In this document: one piece after another, positions 30,502 to 48,055 of the stretch
How the letters are laid out: the number at the start of each line of letters is the position of its first letter
Position numbering within the stretch: the stretch's first letter is position 1
UHGV virus genome: UHGV-0010228
Origin: a virus
Direction: 5' to 3' (one strand)
DNA: 64,000 nucleotides
Translations under genes and position numbers: made by a program
The notes under the pieces: model-generated
Database searches by the model: none
Told to the model about the DNA's origin: nothing
What the model saw: the letters and a program-made list of their open reading frames with translations, nothing else

Positions 30502-30572
30502 TATAATACCTCCTTATATTATATATAATATTAATATAATGTATAATAAAAAAAAAACAAGTGAATGAATCA
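30502..30572 (-). promoter_or_regulatory. 68-bp leader/promoter repeat, copy B
   Basis: Direct repeat of 28897..28965. Confidence 0.5.
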
Positions 30573-31012
30573 CATGATACAGTGGATCTATACAAATCAA
30601 CATTATAATGAGTCGGCCCCGACTATTCATATAATATTAATATTGTATAGATCCTAGTATCATAGCACAATCTGCAGAATAGCAGAAGGTTGATAGTCTT
30701 CCTTTCCTTTCTATAATATCTACTTTCACATGATACTATCATGTTACGTTAGAATGATATTTCATTCAAGTGATCAATATTTTAGATTTTGTCTATCCTT
30801 TATATTTTTAATACTTTGACAAATTGAGGAAATTTATATAGTTTTATAACACCACCCTACAAGTTACCGCTAACCCAGTAACCCCGATGTTAATATGCTA
30901 GCTAGGATAAATCATCTTACATGCAATGCAACACGAGAATGTAGTAATGCAGCAAGATAATTTATCCTAGCCTATATAAGTTCACTTTAATAATATATAA
31001 GTATAATTTTAA

Positions 31013-31423
31013 TCATTTATGCTGAAGAAAGAGCATTTTTAATCTCTCCAATAATGTATGTTTATCAGTATGATTATCCATATTTACACAATCATACATA
31101 TATGCTACAATTTTATCAATAACATAGTTGACCAATCTAGGAATTTCATATCTACCCTTCGAATATTCGTATTCGCAATTATATGAGCGAGTTACTATTT
31201 CATCATATACCACACTTTTATAACTTATCATCACCCATATTGATCGATTATCGTTTTCTTCTAAACTATTAGTCATCTTAACTGTAATTGGAAATTTAGG
31301 GCCTAAATAAAATTCATCTGAATGGATCGTTTGAGATTCATAGTTAGATATTTTTCTAATTAATCTTTCGATCTTATATCTTAACATCATTTCCGGCGCT
31401 TCATTTAATATAAACTTATCCAT
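31013..31423 (-). CDS. hypothetical protein (136 aa)
   Basis: Standard ORF. Confidence 0.55.
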   Translation of the reverse strand: MDKFILNEAPEMMLRYKIERLIRKISNYESQTIHSDEFYLGPKFPITVKMTNSLEENDNRSIWVMISYKSVVYDEIVTRSYNCEYEYSKGRYEIPRLVNYVIDKIVAYMYDCVNMDNHTDKHTLLERLKMLFLQHK

Positions 31424-31453
31424 ATAAATTTCCTTTCAAAAAAAAAAAATAAG

Positions 31454-31477
31454 AGAGCTATTATATAATAGCTCTCC
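31454..31477. terminator. Bidirectional terminator gagagctattata|tataatagctctc flanked by A and T runs
   Basis: Perfect 24-nt palindrome with A11 upstream. Confidence 0.65.
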
Positions 31478-31500
31478 ATAATTAATATTAATTATTAAGT

Positions 31501-32085
31501 TTAAAGTTCTTCCTTTAACCATGGAGGAACTGCATTTGACACCTTAAGTGCTGAATGCTTCTTTGTCTTCATAACTCTACCAGTATCTACCGGAATTGAC
31601 TTTCCATCTGGCTGAGTTTCAAACTTCTTAATTGCAGTTTTCTTTTCAGCAACATCTGTTACTGAAATTGCCATCTGAGTTTCTTCCTTATCTGTAATAG
31701 GGAATACATACTTTCTTCCAGCCTTGATGTAATCCTTAATTACAGTACCAGCAACTTCCATAACTGCAGATGCCTGTTCCTTTGAGAATGTAACTGTATC
31801 GATCTGATTTACTTCTTCCTTATCAAGTCCTAACTGCTTAAGTGTAGGCTTGAGTGATTCTCTATATCTTGTAGCTGGCTTTGTTTCAGTTGCTACAGGC
31901 TCACCATCTGCACCTACAGAACTCTTCTTATATTCATTCTGCACATATTCTGGTGAATTCATTAAAGCCTGAGCAAGACCTACAAGATCTGTAGTTGATG
32001 AACTTACAGGATGCTTACCTGAAGCTCTAACAGTTCCCTTAACTTTCTCTTCTACAGTCTTCTTCATTTCATCGTACTTTGACAT
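31501..32085 (-). CDS. hypothetical protein (194 aa, relatively GC-rich codon use; possibly abundant)
   Basis: GGAGATTAAAAAAATG RBS. Terminator immediately downstream. Confidence 0.65.
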   Translation of the reverse strand: MSKYDEMKKTVEEKVKGTVRASGKHPVSSSTTDLVGLAQALMNSPEYVQNEYKKSSVGADGEPVATETKPATRYRESLKPTLKQLGLDKEEVNQIDTVTFSKEQASAVMEVAGTVIKDYIKAGRKYVFPITDKEETQMAISVTDVAEKKTAIKKFETQPDGKSIPVDTGRVMKTKKHSALKVSNAVPPWLKEEL

Positions 32086-32159
32086 TTTTTTAATCTCCTT
32101 TTCATGATTCAGATTTAATTATAAATTAAATTACTCGTGGTGTTCGTTGAGTTATAAAT

Positions 32160-33857
32160 TTATAACGTAGTTGCTCCAGATGGTGGATTTACCATCTTAG
32201 TTGATACTGGTTCTGAATTATTGAATTCATTTACAAGTTCTTCCCTGTCCATTTCAGAATATTCAGCGGAAGTTTCACTATCAGTAGCTATCACTTCAGT
32301 AGCTTCAACTACATCAACAGATTCTTTCAGTTTTTCCGCCTTCTCTTTAGCTAACTGAGCATCTGCCTGAGCTTTGAGCTTTTCCCAATATTCTTTATAA
32401 ATAGTTACTAACTGCTTATATGCGACGTCACCTTCTTTAATTCCATACTCATGAACTCGATTTAAGAATTCTCTATATGGCAGATGGAAGATTTCTGGAT
32501 CTATATCTTCATAATCATCTTCATCATCTTCGTCGTCATATTCATCTTCATCAATTTCTTCTTCAATATCTTCACTATCATCATCACCATTTATAAGTTT
32601 ATTAAATGCTGCTATTGCAGCATCTTCTTCAACTACAGGTTTAGTAGTTTTCTTTTCAACTACTATTTCGTCATCATCATCTTCGTCTTCAGTTAAATAT
32701 TCAATAACATCATATACAACTTTAGACAAATCTTTGATCTGATTCTTTAATTCTGAAACTTCAGTGTTAGTAGATGGTACTACTTTAGGCTTTGGAGTAA
32801 TGTTTGAAGACTGATTATTAGCATTCTGACTCTGAAGAGATATCAGTGTTGACATCATATCAATCATCTTATCTATCCTTGGGTCATACATATTCTGCTG
32901 CTGAGACTGAAGATTTTCAGTTCTCCTAGAGTGATTATATGGCGATCCACCTCTTCCATAACGGCGATTTGCGTAATCTTCCCCATAGACATACGCATCA
33001 AATTCATAATCGTCATCATCGTCATCATCTGGTTCACCTAATTCAGCAATCTGATCATCACTTAAACCATCTAATATGGAATAACCTGATGATGAACGAT
33101 AGTCTTCATCATCATTATTACGGTTATTATTTCCTGGGTTTATCATCTTAAATGAACCATTCTTAAAATCGGGTGCATTACCCATCATTCTCTGATAATC
33201 CATGTATGCATTATAGTTATCTAAATCTTCCTGTGTGTATACGTCCGGAAGACGATAAAATTCATTGTATTTCGAATATTCTTCTTCATCTTCATCGATT
33301 AAATCGTCATCGAAGAAATCTCCTAATCCGAAATTATGATGAATTCCATCTTTATCACTATCAATAAAGTTCATTAAACCTTTATACTTATTTTTATAAC
33401 CTTTAGCATTAAGATTTAAATATGACTTAAATTCTATTATAGTTTTCTTATATGCCTTATTATAGAATTTCAGTTCTTTCTTTAATGCATCAACATTTTT
33501 GCCATGTTTCTGTCTATCCTTAATACGATTTCTAGTATGCTTAATATCACATACTAAATTTATTAAATCCCTCATTGCCATCATAAGAGATTTAGATCCA
33601 ACTAATCTTTCAAGATTATTACGACCAACATATTTGTCAATCATAAATAATATCATCTTTGAATCTTCACAACGTATTATTCTAGATGCAAATCTATCCG
33701 CACCGAATAATTCATTGAAGATATCATCAACTGCGGAGACATTATCAGGAACTCTAGTTCCCATATTTACACATAAATTCACCATGCTTTTAGCAAGATA
33801 CATGTTTGATACATGTCTATACTTATATTTCTTATTCTTCATCTTCATCCTCCACAT
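32160..33857 (-). CDS. highly acidic hypothetical protein (about 560 aa; D/E/N tracts)
   Basis: Start probably at the ATG at 33842 (GGAGG 6 nt upstream) rather than 33857. Confidence 0.6.
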   Translation of the reverse strand: MWRMKMKNKKYKYRHVSNMYLAKSMVNLCVNMGTRVPDNVSAVDDIFNELFGADRFASRIIRCEDSKMILFMIDKYVGRNNLERLVGSKSLMMAMRDLINLVCDIKHTRNRIKDRQKHGKNVDALKKELKFYNKAYKKTIIEFKSYLNLNAKGYKNKYKGLMNFIDSDKDGIHHNFGLGDFFDDDLIDEDEEEYSKYNEFYRLPDVYTQEDLDNYNAYMDYQRMMGNAPDFKNGSFKMINPGNNNRNNDDEDYRSSSGYSILDGLSDDQIAELGEPDDDDDDDYEFDAYVYGEDYANRRYGRGGSPYNHSRRTENLQSQQQNMYDPRIDKMIDMMSTLISLQSQNANNQSSNITPKPKVVPSTNTEVSELKNQIKDLSKVVYDVIEYLTEDEDDDDEIVVEKKTTKPVVEEDAAIAAFNKLINGDDDSEDIEEEIDEDEYDDEDDEDDYEDIDPEIFHLPYREFLNRVHEYGIKEGDVAYKQLVTIYKEYWEKLKAQADAQLAKEKAEKLKESVDVVEATEVIATDSETSAEYSEMDREELVNEFNNSEPVSTKMVNPPSGATTL

Positions 33858-34395
33858 AATTATCTAATGTATCAGTTAATTCGTCTGGATCGTGAAAATC
33901 ATTATCTTCAACATCATCAAAGATTGATTCATCTTCATCTAAATCATTCTTATATAATTCAACATATCTGCCAATCTGATCTTCGACAATATTTCTATAA
34001 GTATCTTCATCTGATATTATATCAATACAATTATTAATGATCGTATCCTTATATTCATCACTGAATTCATCAATTGAGATATCGTCAGAATATGACTCAA
34101 TGATATCATCATATGCAGATGAAAATGCTGATCTATCGTGATATGTTATTACGTCAGATCCATAAAATTCTTCCATAGCATCTGAATATTCTTTCTTAGT
34201 TTTATAACCAGAAGGATCAATGAATGATTCCATATCATTCATTGCTTTTGTGACTTCATCTGCAATGTTTAAAATCTTTTCGTCATCTTCATTATCTGTG
34301 TAAGATGATACCATTGCATAAAAGTTTGATAATCTGCTCATTGTGTTTTTCTCCTTTTTAATTAAGTAATATAATTTATTAGTGTTATTCACCAT
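33832..34395 (-). CDS. acidic hypothetical protein (187 aa)
   Basis: AAAAGGAGAAAAA RBS. Overlaps the downstream gene's start. Confidence 0.55.
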   Translation of the reverse strand: MVNNTNKLYYLIKKEKNTMSRLSNFYAMVSSYTDNEDDEKILNIADEVTKAMNDMESFIDPSGYKTKKEYSDAMEEFYGSDVITYHDRSAFSSAYDDIIESYSDDISIDEFSDEYKDTIINNCIDIISDEDTYRNIVEDQIGRYVELYKNDLDEDESIFDDVEDNDFHDPDELTDTLDNYVEDEDEE

Positions 34396-34432
34396 TAGAG
34401 ATAATTATAAGCGCGGATTTCTTATAATTATT

Positions 34433-34449
34433 TCACTAAAATAATATAT
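34433..34449 (-). promoter_or_regulatory. Conserved promoter-like motif copy (ATATATTATTTTAGTGA)
   Basis: Upstream of gene 33832..34395. Confidence 0.45.
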
Positions 34450-34464
34450 CATTATAAAAAAAAT

Positions 34465-34492
34465 AGAGGATGAAGAATAAACTTCATCCTCT
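34465..34492 (-). terminator. Terminator agaggatgaag...cttcatcctct
   Basis: Hairpin plus T8 on the minus strand, after lipoprotein gene 34524..35279. Confidence 0.65.
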
Positions 34493-34523
34493 TATGCTAG
34501 TTATTTATATAATTAGCAAATTT

Positions 34524-35279
34524 TTACCAACCCTGATAATCGTAAAGATTTGCTAAATCTTCATCAAGAAAATCCATTGCCTCATCATATGCAACATCAA
34601 GATCTTCTTCTGTTATACCCATGACATCTCCAGCATTATTATTGAAAGTGTCATTTATATAATCTGTAGATATATAATTATATCCACATACAGTTGATAT
34701 AAATTCCTGAATTTCTGGAGCACATGCCATACGCCATTCATAAGTTGGATACTTATTTACTATCTTAACTTTTAATGGTTTAGAACTGGCTTGATTCCAA
34801 TGAACTGTAAAATCATACGATTCTCTTAATTCGTTAAGAGAATCAACATATGACATACCAGATAGCAGTCCTAACTGAGCCTGAAGGAGCATAGCTCCAT
34901 AATCATTGAAGTTAAGAGTTCCATATGTTATCTCATACTCCTTAACCTCGTCATTATCAGTTATAGTATCAAAACTGATAATGTCAAATCCAGTTGCACA
35001 GTCTTTTGCAACTATTTGTGCAACTTCTGAAATTTCTGACTCTGAAATTCCCATTTCTCCTTCACCTAACCACGAGAGCCAGTTTTCTAACGTTTCCTGA
35101 ATACCATACCCAGTAAACTTTTCAAACTGACTCCAGCTATTTTTTGTATTAATTTGCTCAAAAGTATTATACACCATTTCGGATGATTTTGCACATCCTG
35201 TGAATAATAATATTGACGCAATAACTAATACTAATACGGTAAAGATACTTTTCTTCATTTTATTTCCCTCCTTATACAT
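34524..35279 (-). CDS. lipoprotein (251 aa)
   Basis: Signal peptide plus lipobox: MKKSIFTVLVLVIASILLFTGC. Confidence 0.7.
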   Translation of the reverse strand: MYKEGNKMKKSIFTVLVLVIASILLFTGCAKSSEMVYNTFEQINTKNSWSQFEKFTGYGIQETLENWLSWLGEGEMGISESEISEVAQIVAKDCATGFDIISFDTITDNDEVKEYEITYGTLNFNDYGAMLLQAQLGLLSGMSYVDSLNELRESYDFTVHWNQASSKPLKVKIVNKYPTYEWRMACAPEIQEFISTVCGYNYISTDYINDTFNNNAGDVMGITEEDLDVAYDEAMDFLDEDLANLYDYQGW

Positions 35280-35877
35280 AAAGATTATTCCATTCTACAA
35301 CCGAATACTGATCGGTTCCATCCATTGGCATTTGGTCTGAATATGCCCAATAAATGCCAATTACATGATATTCCTCATTAGGATTTATTCTTAATCCTAT
35401 AGTCTTTTCATAATCCAAAACAATTTCTGGATCGGTAACATTTTCAATTGGGCTGAATGTGTTTGGAAAATATGGATCTTCTATAAAGTGTGAGAAAAAT
35501 TCATCATCAGTAGCAATGATATATATATTCTCAAGGTCTGGAAAATATAATGCAATTTCTGGACCTTCCCCATAATAATTTCCAGTAACATGTGATCCCA
35601 TATCACTTTCATCGATATCAATAAGAGCAAATTTTGCTCTACTCTTATCAATATAATCTAAATAGGTCATTGTATCTTCAACTATAGATTTTAATTCATC
35701 AGATGGTATATACCCGTTAAATTCTGAATTGGGATTTACATCCCAGTTATACTGATAACTATCCTCGTCAGAAGATACTGGTGATGATTCTATAGGGTTT
35801 TCTTTGGCTGGTGATTCTCCAACTCCACAACCTGATAAACCTATAATACCTGCTAATATTAATGCTACAATTTTCAT
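35272..35877 (-). CDS. lipoprotein (201 aa)
   Basis: MKIVALILAGIIGLSGC lipobox. GGAGGAAATAAAATG RBS. Confidence 0.7.
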   Translation of the reverse strand: MKIVALILAGIIGLSGCGVGESPAKENPIESSPVSSDEDSYQYNWDVNPNSEFNGYIPSDELKSIVEDTMTYLDYIDKSRAKFALIDIDESDMGSHVTGNYYGEGPEIALYFPDLENIYIIATDDEFFSHFIEDPYFPNTFSPIENVTDPEIVLDYEKTIGLRINPNEEYHVIGIYWAYSDQMPMDGTDQYSVVEWNNLYV

Positions 35878-35917
35878 TTTATTTCCTCCTTAATAATAAC
35901 TTATAACTAGCATTTAA

Positions 35918-35934
35918 TCACTATAATAATATAT
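35918..35934 (-). promoter_or_regulatory. Conserved promoter-like motif copy
   Basis: ATATATTATTATAGTGA upstream of the lipoprotein pair. Confidence 0.45.
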
Positions 35935-36003
35935 CAATTTAAAAAAATACAAATATCAGGAAGCTTTAACATTTCATTAAAATGTATACAAGGAGGTGTA
36001 CAA

Positions 36004-39000
36004 ATGCTATTCGAAAATTATGAAGATTGGAGAGTATATCCACCACAACCGAGGATATATTTCCCTAAAAATTCTTCAAAAAATAAAACTGCAGGATATG
36101 GATCAGCGTTATTTTTATTAACCCCCAAAACTACATCATCTTTCGAATTTATGAAAGATAAAAATGTAGCACTCAGAATGTCTTTATATAAATACTATAT
36201 GATAGAGACGATGTATAAAGAAAAAATTGGTCGAAAAAATGTCATATTAAATATGACTAGACAGATGGAAGCTTTATATAATGAAAATAATGTTGAAAAA
36301 GATACTACAATATCTTATATTCCTAGACCTCAGAAAAAAGCTAGATTAAAATCTGGTAATAATATAATTGTAGATTTATCAATGTGGATGGAATTATATC
36401 TTAAATATACAGTAACTATTCAGAATCCTAAGGAAAAGTGTAGAATATTTATAGATTTATTAGATAAATTGCTTAATGATAGTAATTATAATAATTATGA
36501 AAAATTAGTATGCATAGATATAAATTCATGGACTAATAGAGCGGCAGATTGTGTTATGATGAATCGCGATCTACTCAATAACCCTCTATCAATTTTAATT
36601 TATGCTATGGTTAAATATCCGGATTTATTAAATGGAAAACTTAAAAACTTTAGAATATATCTCGTAAATAGATCTAGTAAGCAGATTTTTCTCTTTAATA
36701 CAAAAGATATTATTAAAGATAATTATAACAAATTTAAGAGTAAGATCAAATTATTCAAGGGTATATCTATATCATCTTCTGAAACTCTTGAGGGCGATAC
36801 CAATATATCAGAAGGTGAAGCCAAGGCTATCGCTATCAATAATTATAAAAATAAAGTATTAAAGTCAATGAAGAGTAATCTCTTAGGTAACAGTAAGAAT
36901 ACTGAAATTCGAGAAATTACTGACGATGATGAATTGATTGATAGTAATGATGATTATGATGAGATCTTCGATGTTACTAAAGAAATAGAAGAAGAATCTG
37001 ATGAAGTAAAACCAACCGATGAAGATTCTAATCTTTTTGATGAAATGGGAGCAGAGTTAGATCTTGATGCTGAAGCTTTGGCTGAATTAGATAATATGAT
37101 TGGTGATATTGATGATGTATCAACTGATGATATATTGAATACTCCAGTAGATGAAGTTGCAGATGATCTTGCTGAACGTGTTAAAAATAATGTATTCATT
37201 GCGGAATTTAAACCTAAGAGGACAAGTGAGCAAGAAGAGCGAAATCGTGAAATGATGGATATTCAGGCAATAGCTCTTAATCAGGAAAATATTGATAATG
37301 CAAAAACCAAGATAATTGATACAACAGATTTTTCAGACTATATCAATTCTTCCAATGTAAATATTCTTAAATCAAAATATGTTAATTTTGATAAAGACTA
37401 TGTTGAAAAGAAAATGGAAGGTGACATAGACAATGCTGTTGCTTGCTTATCTGGAGCGACAGATAAGATATTCATCACCAATAAAGAAGTTATTGATTCT
37501 TCAGACTCTTTAAATCTTAAGAGGACTTTAAAATATTCCCTTGAAGATGAAAAAGGTAATAAAATGACAATAACTTTTGATGTACCTATTATAATTGATA
37601 ACTGCTATATCTATGTAAATGGTAGTAAGAAGTTGATAGGTCATCAGTTTATATTAAAACCTCTAGTAAAAACTGGTCCTGATACTGTTCAGTTAGTAAC
37701 TTCATATAATAAAGTATTTATCACTAGAGATGGCGTTGTAGATTATATATCTTCTAGCATTATAACTTATATGGAGAAGAATCCAGAGAAGTTTAAGTGT
37801 GTTAGGGGTAATTCATCAATTAAGAATAAGAAATATAACACAGCATTAGATTTTACAATGTATGCTAAGTTATTTACTAGATTTACAATTGGTGATGAAG
37901 AATTTATTACCGGCATTGAAGAATTTTATGATAGATACAATAAAAAATATCCAACTAAAAAACTTAAGTTGGATAAAAAGAAAATTGCTGAGAAGTATCC
38001 AATTTCATTTAATAAAAAGACTGGTGAAATAAGATATATGAAATCAACTGAAAGTTTTTCGGATATCTTATTATCAATCATTGATGAAGAAGATAAGAAA
38101 GCAATTAGTAGAATTAAAAAGAAACCTAGACTGGTTTATGTTAGGGCTAAATTAATGGGCCAAATATTCCCAATGGCTCTTCTTTTAATGTATCATGAAG
38201 GATTCGCGTCTATAATGAAACGTGCAGATATTGCTTATCAATTCACAGATAAGAAGTCATATAATAAAATGGATAAAATGAGATATGATTTCTTAGAACT
38301 ATCGGATGGATTAGTCGTCTGGGAACGTAGAAATATGTTAACTTCATTACTCATGAATGGCTTAAAGCGATTAGATTTTACACCTTATACAATAGAAGAG
38401 TTAGAATCTAAGGATACTTATAGGTCATTATTAGTCGACTTATATAATGGGGATAATTCTATTTCATATAAAATAGATCAGTTCTATGATTTTACAATAG
38501 ATTCTATTACTAAGGAGATATTAGAGGATATGAATTATCCTACAAATCTTCCTGATTTATTAATATTAGCAGTTAAGATGTTATGTGATAGCGCATATGC
38601 TCTTGAAAATAATATGAATAATATGAGAATTAGAAGTAATGAGGTAATTCCAGCGATTATTCATAAAGAAATAGCAGATGCATATAACTTATATAGAAAG
38701 ACATCTTATAAGAAGAAACCAGTTAATGTATCTATTAAACCAAATATCATAATTGATAAATTACTATCTGCTGATACCAATCTCATCGAGGAATTTAGTA
38801 CTATAAATCCTGTATTAGAGATAGAAAAAGCTCGTTGTGTAACATTTAAAGGCTATAGAGGTATACAGTTAGATAGAGCGATAACTCTTCCTAGACGTGG
38901 ATATGATCCATCAATGTTAGGAATTATGGGAATTTCAACATCATCAGATGCTAACTGTGGTGTAAATAGACAGATGACATTAGAACCTGCGATTACATCT

Positions 39001-39128
39001 ACAAGAGGATACTTGGAGGTAAATGGTGTTGAAAATGTAAATTCTTTAACAGATGCTAATTTACTATCGCCAGCAGAATTATTAACACCACTCGGTGTTA
39101 TACATGATGACCCCGATAGAACTGCGAT
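36004..39128 (+). CDS. Multisubunit RNA polymerase beta-like subunit, exon 1
   Basis: AGGAGGTG RBS. C-terminal part aligns by eye with bacterial RpoB: ...LDRAITLPRRGYDPSMLG... (compare RERAGFEVRDVHPTHYGR), RGYLEV (YGFLETPYR), LTPLGVIHDDPDRTA ([14 protein letters not shown]). The exon ends ...gcg at| and the 'IKKSLLDVAV*' tail is intron read-through. Confidence 0.75.
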
Positions 39129-39541
39129 CAAAAAAAGCTTGTTAGATGTCGCAGTATAATACCTTGTGAATTGCGGGGATAATTGATACTTTTTATATAC
39201 TAAATCATTATAGTAATATAATGATGGCGAGGGGTAATTCCTTAGGTATAGTAATAATTATAAAAAGAATATTAAATCCGCATCTAATGCTCTTTATACG
39301 AGAAAAGTTCAGAGACTATCGAAAGCTAGATATCTATCATTTATAGAAATATATAAAATACTATACAATATATAGTATGGATAGATTGAGATAACCAAGT
39401 GAGTAGAGTAGAGCCAAGTTATTGGGTTAGTATATATATGATATTAGTATATAGTAAATCTATTAAATCGAAGCGCAAGGGTTAGATTTTATTTGGTAAA
39501 AGAGTAAGATCTAATAAGATATAGTCCGCGATCACATTGTG
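39129..39541 (+). ncRNA. Group I self-splicing intron in the RNAP beta-like gene (413 nt, no ORF)
   Basis: Classical core elements: P gaattgcgggga (39168-39179); Q aaatccgca (about 39282); R gttcagagactat (about 39307-39319); S aagatatagtcc (39516-39527). Internal guide gtcgcag (39148-39154) pairs with exon end cugcgau (39122-39128), with a U-G closing pair. Omega-G at 39541. Confidence 0.85.
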
Positions 39542-40724
39542 GTCTTACAAGCAAACGAAATACATGATTCCAGTTGCTGATTCGTCACCAGTGTTAATAG
39601 GTAATAAAGTTGAATCTATTTTACCATATTTAATTTCAAATGAATTTGTTGTTGATGCTAAGCAAGATGGTGAAGTTGTTGAGATTAAAGACGATTATTG
39701 TGTCGTAAAATATAAAGATGGAACTTATTATTCTATAGATATTGGAAGTAGAATTAAGAAAAATGCAAGTGCAGGTTTCTTTATAGACAATAAATTAACT
39801 TGCAATTTAAAAGTTGGAGATAAATTCAAAAAGGGTGATATTTTAGCTTACAGTGATAAAGCATTTACTCCTAATAGAGATGGTAAAGGCGCATCTATGA
39901 ATTTAGGAGTATTAACAAAAATTGCAATTGTAAGTAATTGGGATGTATATGAGGATAGTGCACCTATCACTAAAAAATTAGCTGAACGGTTAGCTACAGA
40001 TATGGTTTGGGAAAAAGCAGTATCATTAAATCCTGGTACTTACATTGAAAAGATGGTTAAGATTGGTGATAAAATAAAGACTGGTGAATCACTGATGTTA
40101 TTTGAAGAAGTTGATGATACGGATTTCGCTGCTGTTCTTAAACAGATTCGTGAAGAAAATCAAGAAGAACTTATTGAAAGCACAAAATCAACTATTACTT
40201 CGAAATACACAGGAGAAATTGCTGATATTAAAATATATTCAACTGTGCCAGTTGAAGAGATGGATGAATCTTTAGCTAAAATAGTGACCGATTATTATAA
40301 AAAGGTCGAAAAAAGAAATAATATTCTTGAAAAATATAAGAATCCTGGAGATTGTAATTATTATAAATCTGGACAGATTATATCTGAGGAATCTAAAGTT
40401 ATGAAACCATCTAAATCTGGTAAGATTAAAGGTGAGTATGCCGAAAATTCAGTAGTTATTGTATTCTATGTTAAGTATAGAGATGTAGCTGCTAAGGGTG
40501 ATAAAGTATGTGCACAGTTCGCACTTAAGGGTGTTTGCTCACATGTTATAGAAGAAGGATTAGAGCCATATTCTGAATATAGACCAGATGAAGAAATATC
40601 AGCTCTTATTGCACCTCTTGCAGTATCTGCAAGAAAAGTTCCGTCAGTATTCAAGATGATGTTTGGTAATAAATTGCTTATAGAATTAAAACGACATTTG
40701 AAAGATATGTACTTAAATAACTAA
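39542..40724 (+). CDS. Multisubunit RNA polymerase beta-like subunit, exon 2
   Basis: Junction codon at+g gives Met: ...HDDPDRTA-M-SYKQTKYMIPV (compare [20 protein letters not shown]). Downstream GDILAYSDKAF...NLGVLTKIAIVSNWDVYEDS (compare GDVLADGPSTD...NMRVAFMPWNGYNFEDS). Also ALKGVCSHV...LIAPLAVSARKVPSVFKMMFGNKLLIELKRHL (compare GNKGVISKI...[22 protein letters not shown]). The protein stops at about E. coli residue 1100. Confidence 0.75.
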
Positions 40725-40736
40725 ATAAACAAATTA

Positions 40737-40772
40737 TGAATATAAGATATTGTCTAATATCTTATATTCATA
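40737..40772 (+). terminator. Terminator hairpin after the RNAP gene
   Basis: tgaatataagatatt-gtcta-atatcttatattca. Confidence 0.55.
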
Positions 40773-40848
40773 ATTCTATATAAATTTTATGAATATATTA
40801 TTTTGATGATAATATTATATTTCTTAAACAGTGAAAGGAGAATTAAAA

Positions 40849-41925
40849 ATGGAAACTACGAGAAAAATTACACACAAAACGATAAAGAACGGTGAGGTTC
40901 TTGTAGACTCAACAAACACAGAAGTTACTACAATTGAAACGGGTGATAATTATCATAGAGAAATCACAATTTCAAAAAGCGAATCCGGGGAAAATGAATT
41001 TGTTTCATTTAAAGGGGTTCGTCATTTCTCCGATAATTCTTATCGAGATGAATCATATTATATTACTAACGAATCATTAGTTGGAAATGTCTCAGATGTT
41101 ACAGATATTGACGAAGGTGATTATCATATTACCATTGAAGAGCACTACTATTGTATCATTGAGGGTAATTACTTAAATAATATTCCTGAAACTCTTCCTG
41201 AAGATTCCTTAATTCTTGAACGTGTGATGGTTACTAGTAAATCTAAAACCCCTTCAGGAATTGAATATGCTGCAACTGCAGTAACTGAATGTAAGACTAC
41301 TGAAGGTATGGATGAGTATAACTATATGGTATCTACACATACTTTACCAACAGATACCGAATCACCATTTGGTGGTAAAACGCAGCTTATTGCAGTTAAT
41401 TCACTTGAACCTGGAAGAACTAGAGTTAGATTAGTATGTGTTACTGTACCTGATGATGATTCTAATCCTGAATTATTATTTGCATTTGAAAATGTAGGTA
41501 GTAAGGATTCAGATCCTTCAGCATTTATTTCAACACATATTAATTATGATCAGATGGATTCCGTTTTAAATATATCTATAACAGATCTTGAAGATGGAAA
41601 TGTGTATATTGAATTAAAGAATGAAAACGTTGAAATCGAAGTTGGAGTATCGTTAGAAGAATTCAAGAGTAGAAAAGTTACAGATATTAATGGTGCAATA
41701 TATCTCGAATCTAATATTGGGGATGATAGTAGAAACACACTTGAACTTATCGGTGATAGTGGGTTCGCTAAGATCGAACAGATCATCTCATTAATAACAT
41801 GGGATAAAGTGATTGAAAAAATCAATGATGTTTTGAAGTATATTAATAACAGTGAAATTGCAAATATAACTTTCATGTTTGAGGACGGTGAAGCACATTT
41901 TGATCCTGATTATATTCAGGCATAA
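40849..41925 (+). CDS. hypothetical protein (about 358 aa)
   Basis: ATG at 40849 with GAAAGGAGAA RBS (the listed GTG at 40831 is unlikely). A + strand copy of the promoter-like motif lies at about 40783-40800. Confidence 0.65.
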   Translation: METTRKITHKTIKNGEVLVDSTNTEVTTIETGDNYHREITISKSESGENEFVSFKGVRHFSDNSYRDESYYITNESLVGNVSDVTDIDEGDYHITIEEHYYCIIEGNYLNNIPETLPEDSLILERVMVTSKSKTPSGIEYAATAVTECKTTEGMDEYNYMVSTHTLPTDTESPFGGKTQLIAVNSLEPGRTRVRLVCVTVPDDDSNPELLFAFENVGSKDSDPSAFISTHINYDQMDSVLNISITDLEDGNVYIELKNENVEIEVGVSLEEFKSRKVTDINGAIYLESNIGDDSRNTLELIGDSGFAKIEQIISLITWDKVIEKINDVLKYINNSEIANITFMFEDGEAHFDPDYIQA

Positions 41926-41954
41926 TAATATTGCTATCTAAAATTTAATATAAT

Positions 41955-41991
41955 AAAGTATCACAAAATTTTGTGATACTTTATTTTTTTT
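41955..41991 (+). terminator. Rho-independent terminator
   Basis: aaagtatcacaaaa/ttttgtgatacttt followed by T9. Confidence 0.75.
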
Positions 41992-42493
41992 CTGAAAATA
42001 TTTTGATAGATTTTTAAACGATATATTACTCAGATGAATCTTTCGTTTCATAAGAGTTTATATAGAAATATTTCTATATAAACTCTTATTCCTAGTTGTA
42101 TATAAATGAGCTTATATAAATATAAATATTTATATAAGTAGATAGATATTAGAATTTATATATAATCTATATAGAGTTTATAGAGCTTTTATATATAAAT
42201 ATAGTAGATATTATATATATTTATATAAATAGAAAATAAATTATAAATAGTTATGAATTTTATTAAAGAATATTATTTACAGTTATATAAATAAATCTAT
42301 ATAAATAAATCTATATAAATATTTCAATACTCAATAAATATAAAAATACTCTTTAATAAATATATTATATAATAGAATATAAATTATATCCGATATAAAA
42401 ATACCCTACCCTGACGGCATCCGAGCAATATATCTTCGATATAATGTTATGGGGTATTTTTAAGTTTTCAACCCCCGAAAGGAGTCAATTAAA

Positions 42494-43006
42494 ATGAAAT
42501 TTTACAGAGCAGATTATGGTGCATACACATTAGCAATTTCAGAAAAGGAAAAATATGCTAGAAAGTATGCAGAAGATATGAGATGTCTATCTTCAAATAG
42601 TTCAGATAATAAGTCATATACTATTAAAGAAATAGATACAACATATGATGAATTAATGAATAATGATTTAGAAGGAAGATTAGTTCAGAAAATGGGTAAA
42701 GGATTATATCTTACATATGAAGATATATATCTATTAGATAAAGAATCTTCCAACTTTATATCTTTATATGAAAATACAATCAAATCTCTACAAGAATTAG
42801 CATATTATAGTTCAAAGATACCTTCTAATACAGGATTAACAGAAAAATTTAAAGATCTAAGAAGTATAATGGTAGATTACAATTCTAATTTTCAGAAAGC
42901 AAAATTCTCAGCTGCAGTACAACACAACTCACCAGTATTTTCTGAAAATATAGATGAATATATCTTTTATGTATTCGGATCTAATGAATTAAAATGTTCA
43001 AATTAA
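42494..43006 (+). CDS. hypothetical protein (170 aa)
   Basis: GAAAGGAG RBS. Terminator hairpin at 43023..43058. Confidence 0.65.
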   Translation: MKFYRADYGAYTLAISEKEKYARKYAEDMRCLSSNSSDNKSYTIKEIDTTYDELMNNDLEGRLVQKMGKGLYLTYEDIYLLDKESSNFISLYENTIKSLQELAYYSSKIPSNTGLTEKFKDLRSIMVDYNSNFQKAKFSAAVQHNSPVFSENIDEYIFYVFGSNELKCSN

Positions 43007-43150
43007 TTATAATATAAAAGAAATATAGTAGAAGGCTAAAAGCCTTCTACTATATTTACCACACAGATTTTCAAAAAGGAATGAATTATTTGAGGAAAAA
43101 TTTATACAATATGTTTTCAAATTTACATATATGTTTAGTATATTCTAAAA

Positions 43151-43630
43151 TTAAAACGGATTATATTGCATAGCCATAGAACTGAATTTCTCAAGAATTA
43201 TTCCACCATTATCAGGATTCTTCCAATATTCTTTAGAAGTTTTTGAAAAATTTAAATTACATTCAAATTTAATAAATTCTTTAAATTTTTTATATGGCAT
43301 TCTACACATATGCATCCAACAATCCTTGAAAAAGTCATCATAAAGATTATTTTTTATAGCCCATTTGTAGCCAGGAGTAGTTCTTGATGTGAATAGATAT
43401 GGTGCATCCCATAATATCATTTGTTCACCTTCCATTTTAGCAGTGAATATAATTATGTAATCTATACCGTTATTAGGATTGTAATTTAAATATGCATATA
43501 TACGAGTTAGTTTGGGGAAATATATCTTATAATTATCTAATAAATTCTGAAATACAATTTGCCTATCATTTGGTGAAATAAACATTAATTCGTTCATAGG
43601 TGGAACTACCTTATCTCTTATCTTAATCAT
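43151..43630 (-). CDS. hypothetical protein (about 160 aa)
   Basis: Start at the ATG at 43630 (MIKIRDK) with AAAGGAGGAATCAAAAA RBS. The listed upstream ATG (43696) has no RBS and would read through the palindrome. Confidence 0.6.
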   Translation of the reverse strand: MIKIRDKVVPPMNELMFISPNDRQIVFQNLLDNYKIYFPKLTRIYAYLNYNPNNGIDYIIIFTAKMEGEQMILWDAPYLFTSRTTPGYKWAIKNNLYDDFFKDCWMHMCRMPYKKFKEFIKFECNLNFSKTSKEYWKNPDNGGIILEKFSSMAMQYNPF

Positions 43631-43665
43631 TTTTTGATTCCTCCTTTTCATCATTAAATAGAGTG

Positions 43666-43703
43666 TTAAAGAGTGTATAGAGAATTCTCTATACACTCTT
43701 TAA
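43666..43703. promoter_or_regulatory. 38-bp perfect palindrome (candidate operator) in a divergent promoter region
   Basis: ttaaagagtgtatagagaa|ttctctatacactctttaa, centred on GAATTC, between divergent genes 43151..43630 (-) and 43849..44976 (+). Confidence 0.5.
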
Positions 43704-43848
43704 TCGGGAATAAACTACACTAGGATTTATATTACAATAGGAGATTTAGTAATTTTCTTTTTTCTAGGTTTTACATACATGTTAATACAATATAAAAATT
43801 TATTTATATTAATATATTATTAATTTGATAGGAGGAAATATAAATATT

Positions 43849-44976
43849 ATGAGAAAAGGTATAATCTTAAAGAATAGTGGTAAATATAGTATCAAATCTT
43901 TACCAAAATTAATTCCAAAAAGAAATAAATTAGATAAGATTAAGTATATCTTATTACCAATAATGGGAGATATGTATAATATATACTTACCATTAATACC
44001 AACTGAATTAATGTATTCTACAAAAATTACAGTTAATATGATATTAGGCACATATTCTGTTGACTATGAAACTGAAGAGATCATATACTTAGATGAATTA
44101 TATGATGATAGAGAATTTGATGATTATATATCGTTTATAAATTATATTTATACTATATATAAATCAGATGGATTCAATATTGTATTTTCATCATTAAAAT
44201 CAGACTCATTTAATGTTGAAATATTTGAATTCTTAAAAGTTACAAGTCTGGATATTAAATTTTATAAAGATAATGAATTAAAAGATAAAATCTTTTATGA
44301 ATCTGAAGATCCAGATTATCAAAATTATTATATAAATGGAGTTGAAGCTATAAATCAAGATTTAATATCGTTATTAGATAAAATAATAGTTCCAACGTAT
44401 AATCCACATAGTCAACCAAAAAGATTGGAAAGTATATTATTTAATGATTTAGGATATGAATTCTCACCAATAAATGATTTAAAAGATAATCATATTTATT
44501 GCGATTTTGTATTATATCCAATATATGAATTTAATAGTTTCATAATGATATCTCCAGATGAAATAGAAAATCTCAGCAAAAATTATTCATCTAGGTTATA
44601 CATCTTAACATTGCCCAAAATAATTAAGTATTATAATGATCCTCAAGTAATGAATAATATTAAAAATCTAATAATACGAGATGAAATATCTGGTGAGTTG
44701 GATGTATGGGATTACTTTGAGTATTCAATATTATATTATGATCGTATATTAACTTTAATACCATATATAGAGTATATTTGCTTATATTTAGAATATATAT
44801 ACATGAATTATCTTGATGATAATATTAATCCTGGAGAAAGCAATATACTTATTAAAGTTAATAGTGATGGAAGAAGATTATCTGATTGTGATTACTATCT
44901 TTTATCAGAATTAAAAGATCGTAATAATATAAATTCAATTATATCTAAACTATTAGAAGGAGAAGACAATGATTAA
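43849..44976 (+). CDS. hypothetical protein (about 375 aa)
   Basis: ATG at 43849 with TAGGAGGAAA RBS. The core motif TTAATATATTATTAAT lies immediately upstream. Confidence 0.65.
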   Translation: MRKGIILKNSGKYSIKSLPKLIPKRNKLDKIKYILLPIMGDMYNIYLPLIPTELMYSTKITVNMILGTYSVDYETEEIIYLDELYDDREFDDYISFINYIYTIYKSDGFNIVFSSLKSDSFNVEIFEFLKVTSLDIKFYKDNELKDKIFYESEDPDYQNYYINGVEAINQDLISLLDKIIVPTYNPHSQPKRLESILFNDLGYEFSPINDLKDNHIYCDFVLYPIYEFNSFIMISPDEIENLSKNYSSRLYILTLPKIIKYYNDPQVMNNIKNLIIRDEISGELDVWDYFEYSILYYDRILTLIPYIEYICLYLEYIYMNYLDDNINPGESNILIKVNSDGRRLSDCDYYLLSELKDRNNINSIISKLLEGEDND

Positions 44977-45679
44977 AAACATGATAATGAAAAGTAGATT
45001 CTTAAAAATCTATATGCCTTTAGATGAGAAAGATGCTTTATTAATATTGAATGAAGCAAGCCAGATCTTTGATAATGGTATAGTGATTTATCCTCACGAT
45101 ATCGATTCACCTATAGATCCAGAATCGTGCTATATAATAAAACATAAAGGTGAATCTCCAAATGGTGACATATTCAGATATATATCTGATTGTGCAATAC
45201 TTAATGGGTCAGATTCGATTCCATCAACACTAATTCCAATGGAATTAGAAATCGCACCAGCAACAAATATTCATATACTAAGTAAATTAGATACTGAAAG
45301 ATCAAATGATAAATTCATAATTTATCCATGTACAGATATGAATTTAATAATCAAAGTAAAGACAAAATTTTATGAAAAAGTAGTATCATCAGTAAAAGGT
45401 GTCAGATTTGATTTTGCATTGAAACCTATAGGTGAAGTACTTAATAGATATAACATATTTAATTCAACTGCATTGATATCTGATATATTTCTGGTTGTTA
45501 AATATATGCTTTATCTACCATATATCGTAATGGCATATGGAGATGCGTGTGCACTTAAGATATCTATAGAATATAAAGATAAGTCAACAACTAATATTCT
45601 ATACTCATATGATGATGTTGTTCATGGTAATATTATAGCTGATGTAATGGAGGTGATAAATTGGAAGGAATCTCATTAG
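44969..45679 (+). CDS. hypothetical protein (236 aa)
   Basis: Overlapping start (ATGA). GAAGGAGAAGA RBS. Confidence 0.65.
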   Translation: MIKNMIMKSRFLKIYMPLDEKDALLILNEASQIFDNGIVIYPHDIDSPIDPESCYIIKHKGESPNGDIFRYISDCAILNGSDSIPSTLIPMELEIAPATNIHILSKLDTERSNDKFIIYPCTDMNLIIKVKTKFYEKVVSSVKGVRFDFALKPIGEVLNRYNIFNSTALISDIFLVVKYMLYLPYIVMAYGDACALKISIEYKDKSTTNILYSYDDVVHGNIIADVMEVINWKESH

Positions 45680-45763
45680 ACAAAATTCTGGAGAGTTTAA
45701 ACTCTCCAGAAAATAAACTGATAAATCCAAATTATAAAGGTAATATAGAGGAGGACAATACTG

Positions 45764-46378: not shown

Positions 46379-46396
46379 ATTGGAGGTTAAAATACT

Positions 46397-46858: not shown

Positions 46859-46861
46859 GTT

Positions 46862-47359: not shown

Positions 47360-47374
47360 ATTTATTAAAGTCTA

Positions 47375-48038: not shown

Positions 48039-48055
48039 TAATAAAAAAAAAAGAA

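What the first reader, a model, noticed from the sequence alone, without database searches (positions are those of the whole stretch)
36004..40724. Phage-encoded multisubunit RNAP beta-like subunit that ends at about E. coli residue 1100 (split beta)
After intron removal the about-1436-aa product is co-linear with bacterial RpoB from the N-terminus through the region equivalent to GNKGVISKI...[21 protein letters not shown], then stops. The conserved C-terminal module (GGQRFGEMEVWALEAYGA...) is not encoded here. The next ORF is unrelated. Split beta and beta-prime genes are a hallmark of jumbo-phage virion and non-virion RNAPs of the phiKZ/AR9 type. This suggests the phage transcribes its genome with its own RNAP(s), consistent with the non-host-like conserved promoter motif (next finding).
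Basis: partly seen in the sequence, partly recalled or inferred. Interest (0 to 1): 0.65.

Follow-up and report, generated by a model that had tools for sequence, protein, structure and literature searches.

The report
Intron-split virion RNA polymerase beta gene
This is the gene for the large N-terminal piece of the beta subunit of a giant phage's own virion-packaged RNA polymerase, interrupted by a 413-base self-splicing (group I) intron. It is a correct call, but of a gene type already well described in phiKZ/AR9-like jumbo phages.

Summary
Two + strand ORFs (36004-39159 and 39537-40724) are the exons of one gene. I place the exons at 36004-39128 and 39542-40724, separated by a 413-nt group I intron (39129-39541). 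The spliced product is 1435 aa.

It matches the jumbo-phage 'RNA polymerase beta subunit' PHROG families end to end. A profile of it and 13 relatives hits bacterial RpoB (E 2e-24) in four collinear blocks, and the match stops just after the PSRMN-equivalent region. An AlphaFold model of aa 449-1435 retrieves only RNAP beta chains.

Orthologs are phiKZ gp178, PhiPA3 gp211/209 and phiR1-37 g099. phiKZ gp178 and phiR1-37 g099 are annotated as virion structural proteins, so this is the virion-RNAP N-beta subunit.

Intron boundaries rest on the U·G pair at the 5' splice site, the terminal G, P10, a restored conserved Met codon, and compensatory changes in six homologous introns from relatives.

- Correction: the first ~450-500 aa are a family-specific extension, not RpoB-like.
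- Not shown: the C-beta piece is absent from the window, and I could not locate it in this phage's genome.

The window is 99.4% identical to human-gut metagenome contigs of up to 223 kb. Verdict: a new member of a known kind, of modest interest.

The parts
35991..35996 (+). Shine-Dalgarno sequence AGGAGG, 7 nt upstream of the ATG
   Evidence: Read directly from the sequence. No comparable site precedes the TTG at 39537.
36004..39128 (+). Exon 1, aa 1-1041 plus the first two bases (AU) of the Met-1042 codon
   Evidence: ORF and splice model. Matches phrog_3148 at E 8e-79. tblastn hits jumbo-phage N-beta genes.
36004..37368 (+). Family-specific N-terminal extension (aa 1 to about 455). It has an alpha/beta domain at aa 1-255 and an acidic disordered linker at aa 307-388 (nt 36922-37167). 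It is not RpoB-like.
   Evidence: AlphaFold pLDDT is about 85 for aa 1-255 and below 35 for aa 295-352. There is no PDB fold match (best E 0.037). BFVD matches come from a 1393-aa protein (the length of phiR1-37 g099) and a PBS1 921-aa protein (the length of PBS1 gene 80). The acidic stretch is located.
37576..37662 (+). First RpoB-like block (FDVPIIIDNCYIYVNGSKKLIGHQFILKP, aa 525-553), aligned to Thermus beta 117-151
   Evidence: Weak but collinear stretch in the profile-versus-PDB alignment. Coordinates.
38806..38964 (+). RpoB block aa 935-987 (NPVLEIEKARCVTFKGYRG...), aligned to Thermus beta 392-462. By my own knowledge this is the rifampicin-cluster region.
39103..39128 (+). Conserved HDDPDRTA(M) motif, equivalent to E. 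coli HDDANRALM. The intron sits inside its last codon.
   Evidence: Alignment with intronless LPJP1 and phiR1-37 and the PDB alignments. The PhiPA3 intron lies right after the DD of the same motif (PMC11620839).
39129..39541 (+). Group I intron, 413 nt, no ORF
   Evidence: Classical P/Q/R/S core elements are present, and six homologous introns sit at the same codon in relatives. On the core, 95.6% of cells are paired, and 11 of 32 pairs carry compensatory changes versus at most 2 in slid controls.
39121..39155 (+). P1: 5' exon ACUGCGAU (39121-39128) pairs with the internal guide GUCGCAGU (39148-39155), with a U39128·G39148 wobble at the 5' splice site. The guide extension AGAU (39144-39147) pairs with exon-2 GUCU (39542-39545) to form P10.
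   Evidence: P1 and P10 both change in step with the exon sequence in L011, L016 and L017.
39162..39282 (+). P3 5' strand (39162-39168), J3/4 AAU, P4 (39172-39176 with 39278-39282) and the P5 extension between them
39290..39318 (+). P6 hairpin (39290-39302) and the R element GUUCAGAGACUA (39307-39318), which contains the P7 5' strand
   Evidence: In relative L009 a 342-aa HNH_3 ORF sits in the P6 loop.
39319..39473 (+). Peripheral helices between P7 and P3' (P7.1/P7.2-like), the arrangement typical of subgroup IA
   Evidence: Constrained fold only. Subgroup assignment rests on my own knowledge of group I architecture and was not tested by covariation.
39474..39541 (+). P3 3' strand (39474-39480), P8 hairpin (39481-39515), S element AAGAUAUAGUCC (39516-39527, P7 3' strand), a 14-nt tail and the terminal G39541
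   Evidence: All seven introns end ...G|G.
39542..40724 (+). Exon 2: the third base of the Met-1042 codon, aa 1043-1435, and the stop at 40722-40724
   Evidence: Pfam RNA_pol_Rpb2_6 hit.
40497..40640 (+). Last RpoB block: GDKVCAQFALKGV (K1371, equivalent to the Lys of E. coli GNKG) through APLAVSARKV (R1406, equivalent to the Arg of PSRMN)
40733..40773 (+). AT-rich perfect 19-bp inverted repeat just after the stop codon, a possible transcript-end hairpin
   Evidence: Read from the sequence. The G+C-based terminator scan does not call it. The function is inferred.

Best explanation
The locus encodes the N-terminal beta-like subunit (N-beta) of the virion-packaged multisubunit RNA polymerase of an uncultivated human-gut jumbo phage. 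It is orthologous to phiKZ gp178, PhiPA3 gp211/209 and phiR1-37 g099.

**Shown here**
- The gene is transcribed as one pre-mRNA carrying a 413-nt ORF-less group I intron inside the Met codon of the conserved HDDxxRxxM motif.
- The predicted splice joins U39128 to G39542, guided by P1 and P10. This restores the Met and yields a 1435-aa protein.
- That protein carries about 450 aa of family-specific N-terminal extension, then the RpoB lobe/protrusion, fork and flap regions, and the first part of the beta catalytic barrel, up to just past the PSRMN-equivalent Arg.
- Shown are the homology, the collinearity, the end point, the intron structure and the orthology.

**Inferred from phiKZ and AR9**
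- The remaining ~210-residue-equivalent beta C-terminus is supplied by a separate small virion protein (C-beta, about 224-250 aa in relatives) encoded elsewhere.
- Together with split beta' pieces it forms an alpha- and omega-less RNAP. That enzyme is packed in the head, injected with the DNA, and transcribes early genes independently of the host RNAP.
- Splicing in vivo, virion packaging, the partner subunits and the early-gene role are all inferred.
For: **Beta identity**
- Pfam Rpb2_6 hit.
- phrog_3148 and phrog_14872, both 'RNA polymerase beta subunit', are covered almost end to end by the two exons in order.
- Profile versus PDB gives RpoB at E 1.8e-24 in four collinear blocks.
- Foldseek with the aa 449-1435 model returns RNAP beta chains for all 50 top hits, E about 1e-20 and probability 1.00.

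**Virion type**
- tblastn hits exactly one locus per jumbo-phage genome.
- That locus is PhiPA3 gp209/211, noted as similar to phiKZ gp178.
- It is phiR1-37 g099, noted 'phage structural protein'.
- It is Moabite gp238, whose EL homolog was found in virions by mass spectrometry.
- It is phiKZ gp178, noted 'structural head protein', which matches the window at E 4e-22.
- Gp178 co-precipitates with the vRNAP subunits Gp180, Gp80 and Gp149 (PMC10612078).

**Split**
- Intronless homologs of 1393-1461 aa end at the same point.
- C-beta is a separate 224-aa head protein in phiKZ, with hundreds of homologs.
- The review PMC7598289 describes the N-beta/C-beta architecture.

**Intron**
- P/Q/R/S core elements, the U·G pair, the terminal G and P10 are all present, and the Met codon is rebuilt.
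- 11 of 32 core pairs carry compensatory changes.
- Exon 2 has no ribosome-binding site.
- Relatives carry introns at the same codon, one of them with an HNH ORF.
- PhiPA3 has an experimentally studied intron in the same motif (PMC11620839).

**Jumbo phage**
- Contigs 99.4-99.5% identical to the window reach 223,545 bp, and contigs of a relative with a 96%-identical protein reach 231-237 kb.
Against: - The C-beta, beta' and non-virion RNAP genes of this phage were not found. They are not in the 64-kb window.
- Two large-database searches with C-beta profiles returned no listed hit on the 223-237 kb contigs. Only the best 120 of 478 hits were shown in the second search.
- Rfam's Intron_gpI model scores only 10.5 bits against a gathering score of 50.
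- The strands used for the covariation count were picked by anchors, and partly by best complementarity for the P3 3' strand and the guide sequence. This biases the percentage paired upward.
- Identity to any cultivated phage is at most 36%, so functional transfer from phiKZ or AR9 is long-range.
- No proteomic or RNA data exist for this phage.
Confidence: 0.9

Rival explanations
1. There is no splicing. The two ORFs are separate genes, so beta would be cut into three polypeptides in this phage, with the intervening 400 nt being an ordinary intergenic region.
For: Both ORFs are open, and gene callers annotate them separately in every related contig. Jumbo-phage RNAP subunits do tolerate fragmentation (PMC7598289).
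Against: - The spacer has a complete group I core with compensatory changes across relatives.
- P1 and P10 track the flanking exon sequence.
- Exon 2 has no Shine-Dalgarno site, and its first in-frame start is a TTG inside the intron.
- Exon 1 runs only 10 codons into the intron before a stop.
- Splicing rebuilds the conserved Met at exactly the homolog spacing.
- Intronless homologs are single genes.
Confidence: 0.03
2. It is the beta piece of the non-virion (intracellular, middle/late-gene) RNAP rather than of the virion enzyme.
For: Both enzymes have split beta subunits related to RpoB. Exon 2 gives a weak hit to a third beta PHROG, phrog_3295 (E 3e-8).
Against: - Best hits and full-length coverage are to the gp178/g099 family, whose members are annotated as virion or head proteins.
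- Each jumbo-phage genome gives only one matching locus at E<=1e-5.
- The solved non-virion RNAPs of phiKZ and AR9 (papers listed) are not among the 48 PDB sequences hit by the profile.
- The review states that the vRNAP and nvRNAP beta subunits are split at different positions.
Confidence: 0.04
3. It is a truncated or decaying full-length rpoB, either a pseudogene or the product of a sequencing frameshift, rather than a natural split.
For: The C-terminal catalytic module is missing from the ORF.
Against: - The same end point is found in every homolog, from 99% down to 20% identity, including cultivated phages.
- Independent metagenome assemblies agree at 99.4-99.5% identity.
- No beta C-terminal similarity exists downstream in any frame.
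Confidence: 0.02

Closest known systems
phiKZ gp178 / PhiPA3 gp211+gp209 (virion RNAP N-beta of phiKZ-like jumbo phages)
   Same: - Same family, with tblastn E 4e-22 against the window.
- Same length class (1451 aa) and same C-terminal end point.
- The HDD motif region is an intron site in both PhiPA3 and this phage.
   Different: - Only about 26-28% identity over the aligned parts.
- phiKZ gp178 is intronless.
- The PhiPA3 intron lies right after the DD, about six codons upstream, and carries the HNH endonuclease gp210. The intron here has no ORF.
- In phiKZ and PhiPA3 the beta' gene (gp180 / gene 212) lies next to the N-beta gene. No such gene is in this window.
N-beta genes of the AR9/PBS1, phiR1-37 and Staphylococcus/Listeria jumbo phages (PBS1 genes 80/78, phiR1-37 g099, MarsHill_161, SA1 QPI17140, LPJP1_00104)
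   Same: - These are the closest cultivated relatives, at 32-36% identity for exon 2.
- BFVD fold matches to the N-terminal extension come from proteins with the lengths of PBS1 gene 80 (921 aa) and phiR1-37 g099 (1393 aa).
- MarsHill and PBS1 also carry group I introns in this gene.
   Different: - The MarsHill intron is about 1.3 kb, carries an ORF and sits about one codon away.
- PBS1 has about four intron cores in the gene.
- LPJP1, SA1 and phiR1-37 have none.
- The hosts of those phages are aerobes or facultative anaerobes. This phage encodes NrdD and comes from human-gut samples.
Bacterial RpoB (for example Thermus thermophilus or E. coli beta)
   Same: - Four conserved blocks in the same order.
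- Invariant catalytic-region residues: the HDDxxR motif, K1371 (Lys of GNKG) and R1406 (Arg of PSRMN).
- RNAP beta fold.
   Different: - About 12% identity in the structural alignments.
- An extra N-terminal extension of about 450 aa.
- Lacks the last ~210 Thermus-equivalent residues, which hold the GGQRFGEME region and the C-terminal clamp contacts.
Phage group I introns of subgroup IA (T4 td/nrdB, SPO1 DNA polymerase, PhiPA3 gp210 intron)
   Same: - P/Q/R/S core sequences, the P3/P7 pseudoknot, the U·G and terminal G splice signals, and P10.
- Extra helices between P7 and P3'.
- Insertion into a highly conserved motif of an essential gene.
- Sibling introns with an HNH endonuclease ORF in a peripheral loop.
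   Different: - No endonuclease ORF in this copy.
- No detectable P2.
- Falls far below the Rfam Intron_gpI threshold.
- Self-splicing is untested.

Membership tests
Jumbo-phage virion RNAP N-beta (phiKZ gp178 family; phrog_3148 / phrog_14872) | Full-length sequence similarity to the family profile | tested here: met
   Exon 1 matches phrog_3148 at E 8e-79 (positions 287-1054). Exon 2 matches at E 1e-61 (positions 1060-1421 of 1424). phrog_14872 is matched at E 2e-77 up to position 1391 of 1393.
Jumbo-phage virion RNAP N-beta (phiKZ gp178 family; phrog_3148 / phrog_14872) | RpoB conserved regions in bacterial order, with the beta fold | tested here: met
   Profile versus PDB: RpoB at E 1.8e-24, four collinear blocks. 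Foldseek: all top hits are RNAP beta chains.
Jumbo-phage virion RNAP N-beta (phiKZ gp178 family; phrog_3148 / phrog_14872) | The polypeptide ends shortly after the PSRMN-equivalent region, and the C-terminal beta module is absent | tested here: met
   Only 29 residues follow R1406. The homologs end at the same place. No C-beta similarity lies downstream.
Jumbo-phage virion RNAP N-beta (phiKZ gp178 family; phrog_3148 / phrog_14872) | A separate C-beta gene (phiKZ gp149-like) and split beta' genes elsewhere in the same genome | tested here: inconclusive
   They are absent from the 64-kb window. Database searches with C-beta profiles found many gut-metagenome homologs, but none listed on this phage's contigs.
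Jumbo-phage virion RNAP N-beta (phiKZ gp178 family; phrog_3148 / phrog_14872) | The protein is present in the virion | not testable with these tools
   Known only for orthologs: phiR1-37 g099, phiKZ gp178 and the EL homolog cited for Moabite gp238.
Jumbo-phage virion RNAP N-beta (phiKZ gp178 family; phrog_3148 / phrog_14872) | Genome longer than 200 kb (jumbo phage) | tested here: met
   Contigs 99.4-99.5% identical to the window reach 223,545 bp, and those of the relative with a 96%-identical protein reach 231-237 kb.
Jumbo-phage non-virion RNAP N-beta | Closest similarity to the non-virion beta genes and their different split position | tested here: not met
   Only the gp178-type locus is hit in each phage genome. 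No nvRNAP chain is among the PDB hits. The split sites differ according to PMC7598289.
Group I intron | P1 with a U·G wobble at the 5' splice site, formed by exon and internal guide sequence | tested here: met
   ACUGCGAU pairs with GUCGCAGU. Two pairs carry compensatory changes in L011 and L016, and the U·G pair is invariant.
Group I intron | Terminal G at the 3' end and P10 pairing of the 3' exon with the guide extension | tested here: met
   All seven introns end ...G|G. In P10, four of six pairs carry changes on both sides: GUCU/AGAU versus GAGUUU/AAACUU and GAGCUU/AAGCUU.
Group I intron | Conserved catalytic core P3-P4-P6-P7-P8 with the P3/P7 pseudoknot | tested here: met
   P, Q, R and S elements are present. 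P3, P4 and P7 each carry compensatory changes. P6 and P8 are hairpins of unrelated sequence in every relative. Caveat: I chose the strands by anchors.
Group I intron | Score at or above the gathering threshold of Rfam RF00028 (Intron_gpI) | tested here: not met
   10.5 bits against a threshold of 50, with a partial match at 39163-39325 only. I still file it as a group I intron on the structural criteria above. The single Rfam model is a weak detector here.
Group I intron | Self-splicing activity | not testable with these tools
   Needs in vitro transcription and splicing, or RNA-seq.
Full-length bacterial-type RpoB | C-terminal module (GGQRFGEME region and C-terminal clamp contacts) in the same polypeptide | tested here: not met

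The most novel reading that the evidence does not exclude
The intron belongs to an actively exchanging family. It occupies one codon of the vRNAP N-beta gene across a previously undescribed clade of human-gut jumbo phages, probably infecting anaerobic Firmicutes.
- The copies differ in size: 229-427 nt for ORF-less copies and 1401 nt for a copy with an HNH ORF.
- Their guide sequences co-evolve with the exon.

As shown for PhiPA3 gp210 against phiKZ, the endonuclease-bearing members could mediate interference competition between co-infecting gut jumbo phages. The ORF-less copy here would then act as an immunity allele, because the target site is disrupted.
Probability: 0.25. Interest if true: 0.5.

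Novelty: new member of a known kind. Interest (0 to 1): 0.3.

Why it matters
- It marks this uncultivated gut phage as one of the RNAP-encoding jumbo phages. Their early transcription is expected to be independent of, and insensitive to inhibitors of, the host RNA polymerase.
- It extends the phiKZ/AR9-type virion RNAP to a lineage that shares at most 36% identity with any isolate and appears to infect gut anaerobes.
- The precise intron and exon boundaries let the gene be annotated as one 1435-aa product. Every related metagenome contig currently carries two 'hypothetical proteins' instead.
- The set of seven homologous introns gives a small, clean example of P1/P10 co-evolution with coding sequence. 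It also points to a recurrent intron site in the HDDxxRxxM motif.

None of this changes current understanding of these enzymes.

Tried and rejected
1. Megablast of the locus against 50,697 phage records found no match, so the phage is not a sequenced isolate.
2. Rfam gave nothing at gathering thresholds over the whole window. Intron_gpI scored only 10.5 bits in a permissive scan.
3. My first splice guesses (39123|39531 and 39129|39534) gave products 2-3 residues too long. Neither satisfied both splice signals, a U before the 5' splice site and a G ending the intron. I rejected them in favour of 39128|39542.
4. An intein, or a bypass of the spacer, is rejected because the spacer has stops in all frames and an RNA core structure.
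5. Looking for partner subunits in the window all came back negative:
   - tblastn with neighbouring beta'-like genes of SA1, MarsHill, Moabite and JD-Fnp4, and with phiKZ gp149 and gp180;
   - motif regexes;
   - a C-beta HMM against the six-frame translation;
   - PHROGs on all remaining ORFs, concatenated.
6. Finding jumbo-phage C-beta with the E. coli beta C-terminus by tblastn failed because it is too divergent. phiKZ gp149 worked instead.
7. I assumed PBS1 gene numbers equal AR9 gene numbers. That is wrong: the SA1 annotation shows AR9 g078 is the C-beta homolog. I therefore make no AR9 gene-number claims for N-beta.
8. Two large-database searches with C-beta profiles did not surface a hit on this phage's 223-237 kb contigs, so C-beta in this genome remains unshown.
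9. A MAFFT alignment of whole introns (A2) misaligned the two short introns. I therefore counted pairs on a gapless alignment of anchor-extracted core strands (A6).
10. The constrained minimum-energy fold is less stable than the unconstrained one (-57.9 versus -97.2 kcal/mol), so thermodynamics alone does not support the model. Covariation does.

Full report
**What is at the coordinates.**
The + strand carries an ORF at 36004..39159 (1051 aa, ATG preceded by AGGAGG at 35991-35996). A second ORF lies at 39537..40724 (395 aa), with a TTG 'start' and no ribosome-binding site. The second ORF alone passes the Pfam threshold for RNA_pol_Rpb2_6. Against PHROGs the two pieces map one after the other onto the same families, both named 'RNA polymerase beta subunit'. 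Exon 1 covers positions 287-1054 of phrog_3148 and exon 2 covers 1060-1421 of its 1424 positions. phrog_14872 is matched up to position 1391 of 1393. So the two ORFs are parts of one gene, and the family itself ends where this gene ends.

**The intervening sequence is a group I intron, and its boundaries can be fixed.**
Rfam does not call it: there is no gathering-level hit in the window, and Intron_gpI scores 10.5 bits against a threshold of 50. The spacer nevertheless contains the classical core elements:
- AAUUGCGGG (P), AAUCCGCA (Q);
- GUUCAGAGACUA (R, 39307-39318);
- AAGAUAUAGUCC (S, 39516-39527).

The last eight exon bases, ACUGCGAU (39121-39128), pair with GUCGCAGU (39148-39155) and end in a U·G wobble. 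This places the 5' splice site after U39128.

Only one 3' site meets all the following conditions, and that is G39541|G39542:
- it follows a G;
- it keeps the frame;
- it restores the spacing of intronless homologs.

With that site the junction AU|G rebuilds the conserved Met of the motif. The window reads HDDPDRTAM-SYKQTK, LPJP1 reads HADPPRISM-QVTQQK, and E. coli reads [15 protein letters not shown]. The first exon-2 bases GUCU pair with AGAU directly 5' of the guide sequence, forming P10. The spliced ORF is 4308 nt, or 1435 aa.

**Comparative support for the intron.**
The protein database returned relatives whose gene is interrupted at the same place, and others that are uninterrupted. I fetched six interrupted loci. 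All have the same 5' junction (...CGAU|), the same 3' junction (...G|G followed by S-[YVF]-KQTK), and the same core elements. Intron lengths are 229, 334, 392, 403 and 427 nt, and 1401 nt for a copy with an HNH_3 ORF in the P6 loop.

| Helix | Window | Variants in relatives |
|---|---|---|
| P1 | ACUGCGAU/GUCGCAGU | ACAGCGAU/GUCGCUGU; ACGUCGAU/GUCGACGU |
| P10 | GUCU/AGAU | GAGUUU/AAACUU; GAGCUU/AAGCUU (where the Ser codon differs) |
| P3 | CCUUGUG/CGCAAGG | CCUCGUG/UGCGAGG; CACCGUG/UGCGGUG |
| P4 | UGCGG/CCGCA | UGCUG/CAGCA |

The helices change in step. The outer P7 pair switches from G-C to A-U. P6 and P8 are hairpins of unrelated sequence in each relative.

On a gapless alignment of the core strands, 95.6% of cells pair. 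Eleven of 32 pairs carry changes on both sides. Sliding the partners by 1-3 columns gives 24-45% paired and at most 2 such pairs. One caveat applies: I extracted the strands by sequence anchors, and I chose the P3 3' strand and the guide by best complementarity, which inflates the percentage paired. The compensatory pattern in P1 and P10, whose positions are fixed by the splice sites, does not depend on that choice. Helices between P7 and P3' (39319-39473) suggest subgroup IA, but that rests only on a constrained fold.

**What the protein is.**
A profile of the spliced protein with 13 full-length relatives hits bacterial RpoB in the PDB at E 1.8e-24, in four collinear blocks:

| Block (window residues) | Thermus beta residues |
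|---|---|
| about aa 525-553 | 117-151 |
| aa 935-987 | 392-462 |
| about aa 1000-1185 (includes the HDD motif) | 533-703 |
| about aa 1345-1408 (GDK..ALKG...SARK) | 822-880 of 1119 |

Invariant residues include K1371 and R1406, which align with the Lys of GNKG and the Arg of PSRMN. Only 29 residues follow R1406.

An AlphaFold model of aa 449-1435 has mean pLDDT 72.7. It is low in the segments that would contact beta' and nucleic acid. It retrieves only RNAP beta chains (E about 1e-20, probability 1.00).

The N-terminal about 450 aa are different. Residues 1-255 model as a confident alpha/beta domain, and aa 295-352 are disordered and acidic. There is no significant PDB match. The only significant BFVD matches are three RNAP-type phage proteins. 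One is 1393 aa, the length of phiR1-37 g099. One is a 921-aa PBS1 protein, the length of PBS1 gene 80. The third is an uncultured Myoviridae protein annotated as an RNA polymerase subunit. The extension therefore looks family-specific, and the statement 'collinear from the N-terminus' needs correcting.

**Which polymerase.**
tblastn against 50,697 phage genomes finds exactly one locus per jumbo-phage genome. The best hits are:
- Staphylococcus jumbo phages, at 35-36% for exon 2;
- Listeria LPJP1;
- phiR1-37 g099, annotated 'RNA polymerase beta subunit; phage structural protein';
- PBS1 genes 80 and 78;
- PhiPA3 gp211/gp209, 'similar to gp178 phiKZ';
- Moabite gp238, whose EL homolog was found in virions by mass spectrometry.

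phiKZ gp178 (1451 aa, 'structural head protein') matches the window directly. It co-precipitates with the vRNAP subunits Gp180, Gp80 and Gp149 (PMC10612078). [quoted passage not shown] It notes that the beta split sites differ between the virion and non-virion enzymes. The gene is therefore the virion-RNAP N-beta.

**The missing C-terminal module.**
In phiKZ it is gp149, a 224-aa head protein. Its homolog in Staphylococcus phage SA1 is a 679-aa protein annotated as similar to AR9 g078. AR9 gp078 is listed among the vRNAP subunits (PMC5312081).

Nothing like it is in the window:
- a three-sequence HMM against the six-frame translation gives a best E of 0.46;
- motif scans are negative;
- tblastn with beta' neighbours and with phiKZ gp149 and gp180 is negative;
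- no other ORF hits an RNAP PHROG.

I could not reach the rest of the genome. Two profile searches of the large protein database found hundreds of C-beta homologs, many from gut samples, but none listed on this phage's contigs. That this phage has a C-beta therefore remains an inference from the family.

**Origin.**
The window is 99.4-99.5% identical to contigs from several human-gut metagenomes, including a Hadza sample. The longest is 223,545 bp. A relative whose protein is 96% identical (about 86% at the DNA level) sits on contigs of 231-237 kb. An anaerobic ribonucleotide reductase and a SpoIIID-like gene hint at an anaerobic Firmicutes host. No isolate genome matches at the DNA level.

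**Relation to known work.**
Introns in this gene are already described.
- The PhiPA3 intron sits right after the conserved DD of the same motif. It carries the HNH endonuclease gp210, which nicks phiKZ gp178 and gives PhiPA3 a competitive advantage (PMC11620839).
- MarsHill is annotated with a two-exon N-beta gene.
- PBS1 shows about four intron cores in the gene.

The present intron lies six codons downstream of the PhiPA3 site and lacks an ORF, while a sibling (L009) has an HNH ORF.

**Verdict.**
The finding is a well-supported new member of a known gene family and a known intron class. The main gaps are the unlocated partner subunits and the absence of any expression or proteomic data.

Noticed in passing
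window 15717-27680 (-): A giant ORF of 3987 aa. In the relative whose N-beta protein is 96% identical, the 4010-aa homolog carries Peptidase_C39_2, Glucosaminidase and Peptidase_M23 domains. This suggests a virion-associated cell-wall hydrolase; I suspect, from memory, something like the phiKZ gp181 tail-associated endolysin.
   Followed up: partly
window 6146-8248 (-); 52297-52698 (-): An anaerobic ribonucleotide reductase NrdD (Pfam E 7e-177) and a SpoIIID-like small protein (PHROG E 7e-13). Both hint at an anaerobic, possibly spore-forming Firmicutes host.
   Followed up: no
window 30484-49173 versus loci L019-L022: This part of the window is 99.4-99.5% identical to contigs from several human-gut metagenomes, including a Hadza sample. 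The longest contig is 223,545 bp.
   Followed up: partly
window 39124-39130 and 39528-39534: A 7-nt direct repeat GCGATCA spans the 5' splice site and recurs in the 14-nt tail of the intron. The tail could therefore mimic the 5' exon and pair with the guide sequence. It is present as ACGATCA or CGATCA in the closest relatives (L012, L010) and absent in L009, L011, L016 and L017. Unexplained.
   Followed up: partly
window 40733-40773: An AT-rich perfect 19-bp inverted repeat (ATTATGAATATAAGATATT gtct AATATCTTATATTCATAAT) lies right after the stop codon. The G+C-based terminator scan misses it.
   Followed up: no
window 3393-3525 and about 47975-48105: A dispersed intergenic repeat of about 130 nt. 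It contains the palindrome TTACGGTATATTCTATATATAGAATATACCGTAA and the motif CACTTTAATAATATA, so it may be a terminator plus promoter module.
   Followed up: partly
window 36004-36768 (aa 1-255 of N-beta): A confidently modelled alpha/beta domain at the N-terminus with no PDB match. The significant BFVD matches come from a 1393-aa protein (the length of phiR1-37 g099), a 921-aa PBS1 protein and one uncultured-phage RNAP protein. There is a faint similarity to P-loop kinases (Pnkp1, E 3.5e-3) but I saw no Walker A motif. Function unknown.
   Followed up: partly
L016 about 6990-7800; L008 5600-8000: Relative L016 has a second intron further upstream in the same gene, and a tubulin (PhuZ-like) gene nearby. 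The PBS1 N-beta gene shows about four sets of group I core elements.
   Followed up: partly
window 845-1510 (+), 13491-14114 (-), 49928-50341 (+), 14118-15635 (-), 58792-61119 (+): Other recognisable genes are an exonuclease, a RusA-like resolvase, a holin and two virion structural proteins. Most other ORFs have no family match.
   Followed up: no
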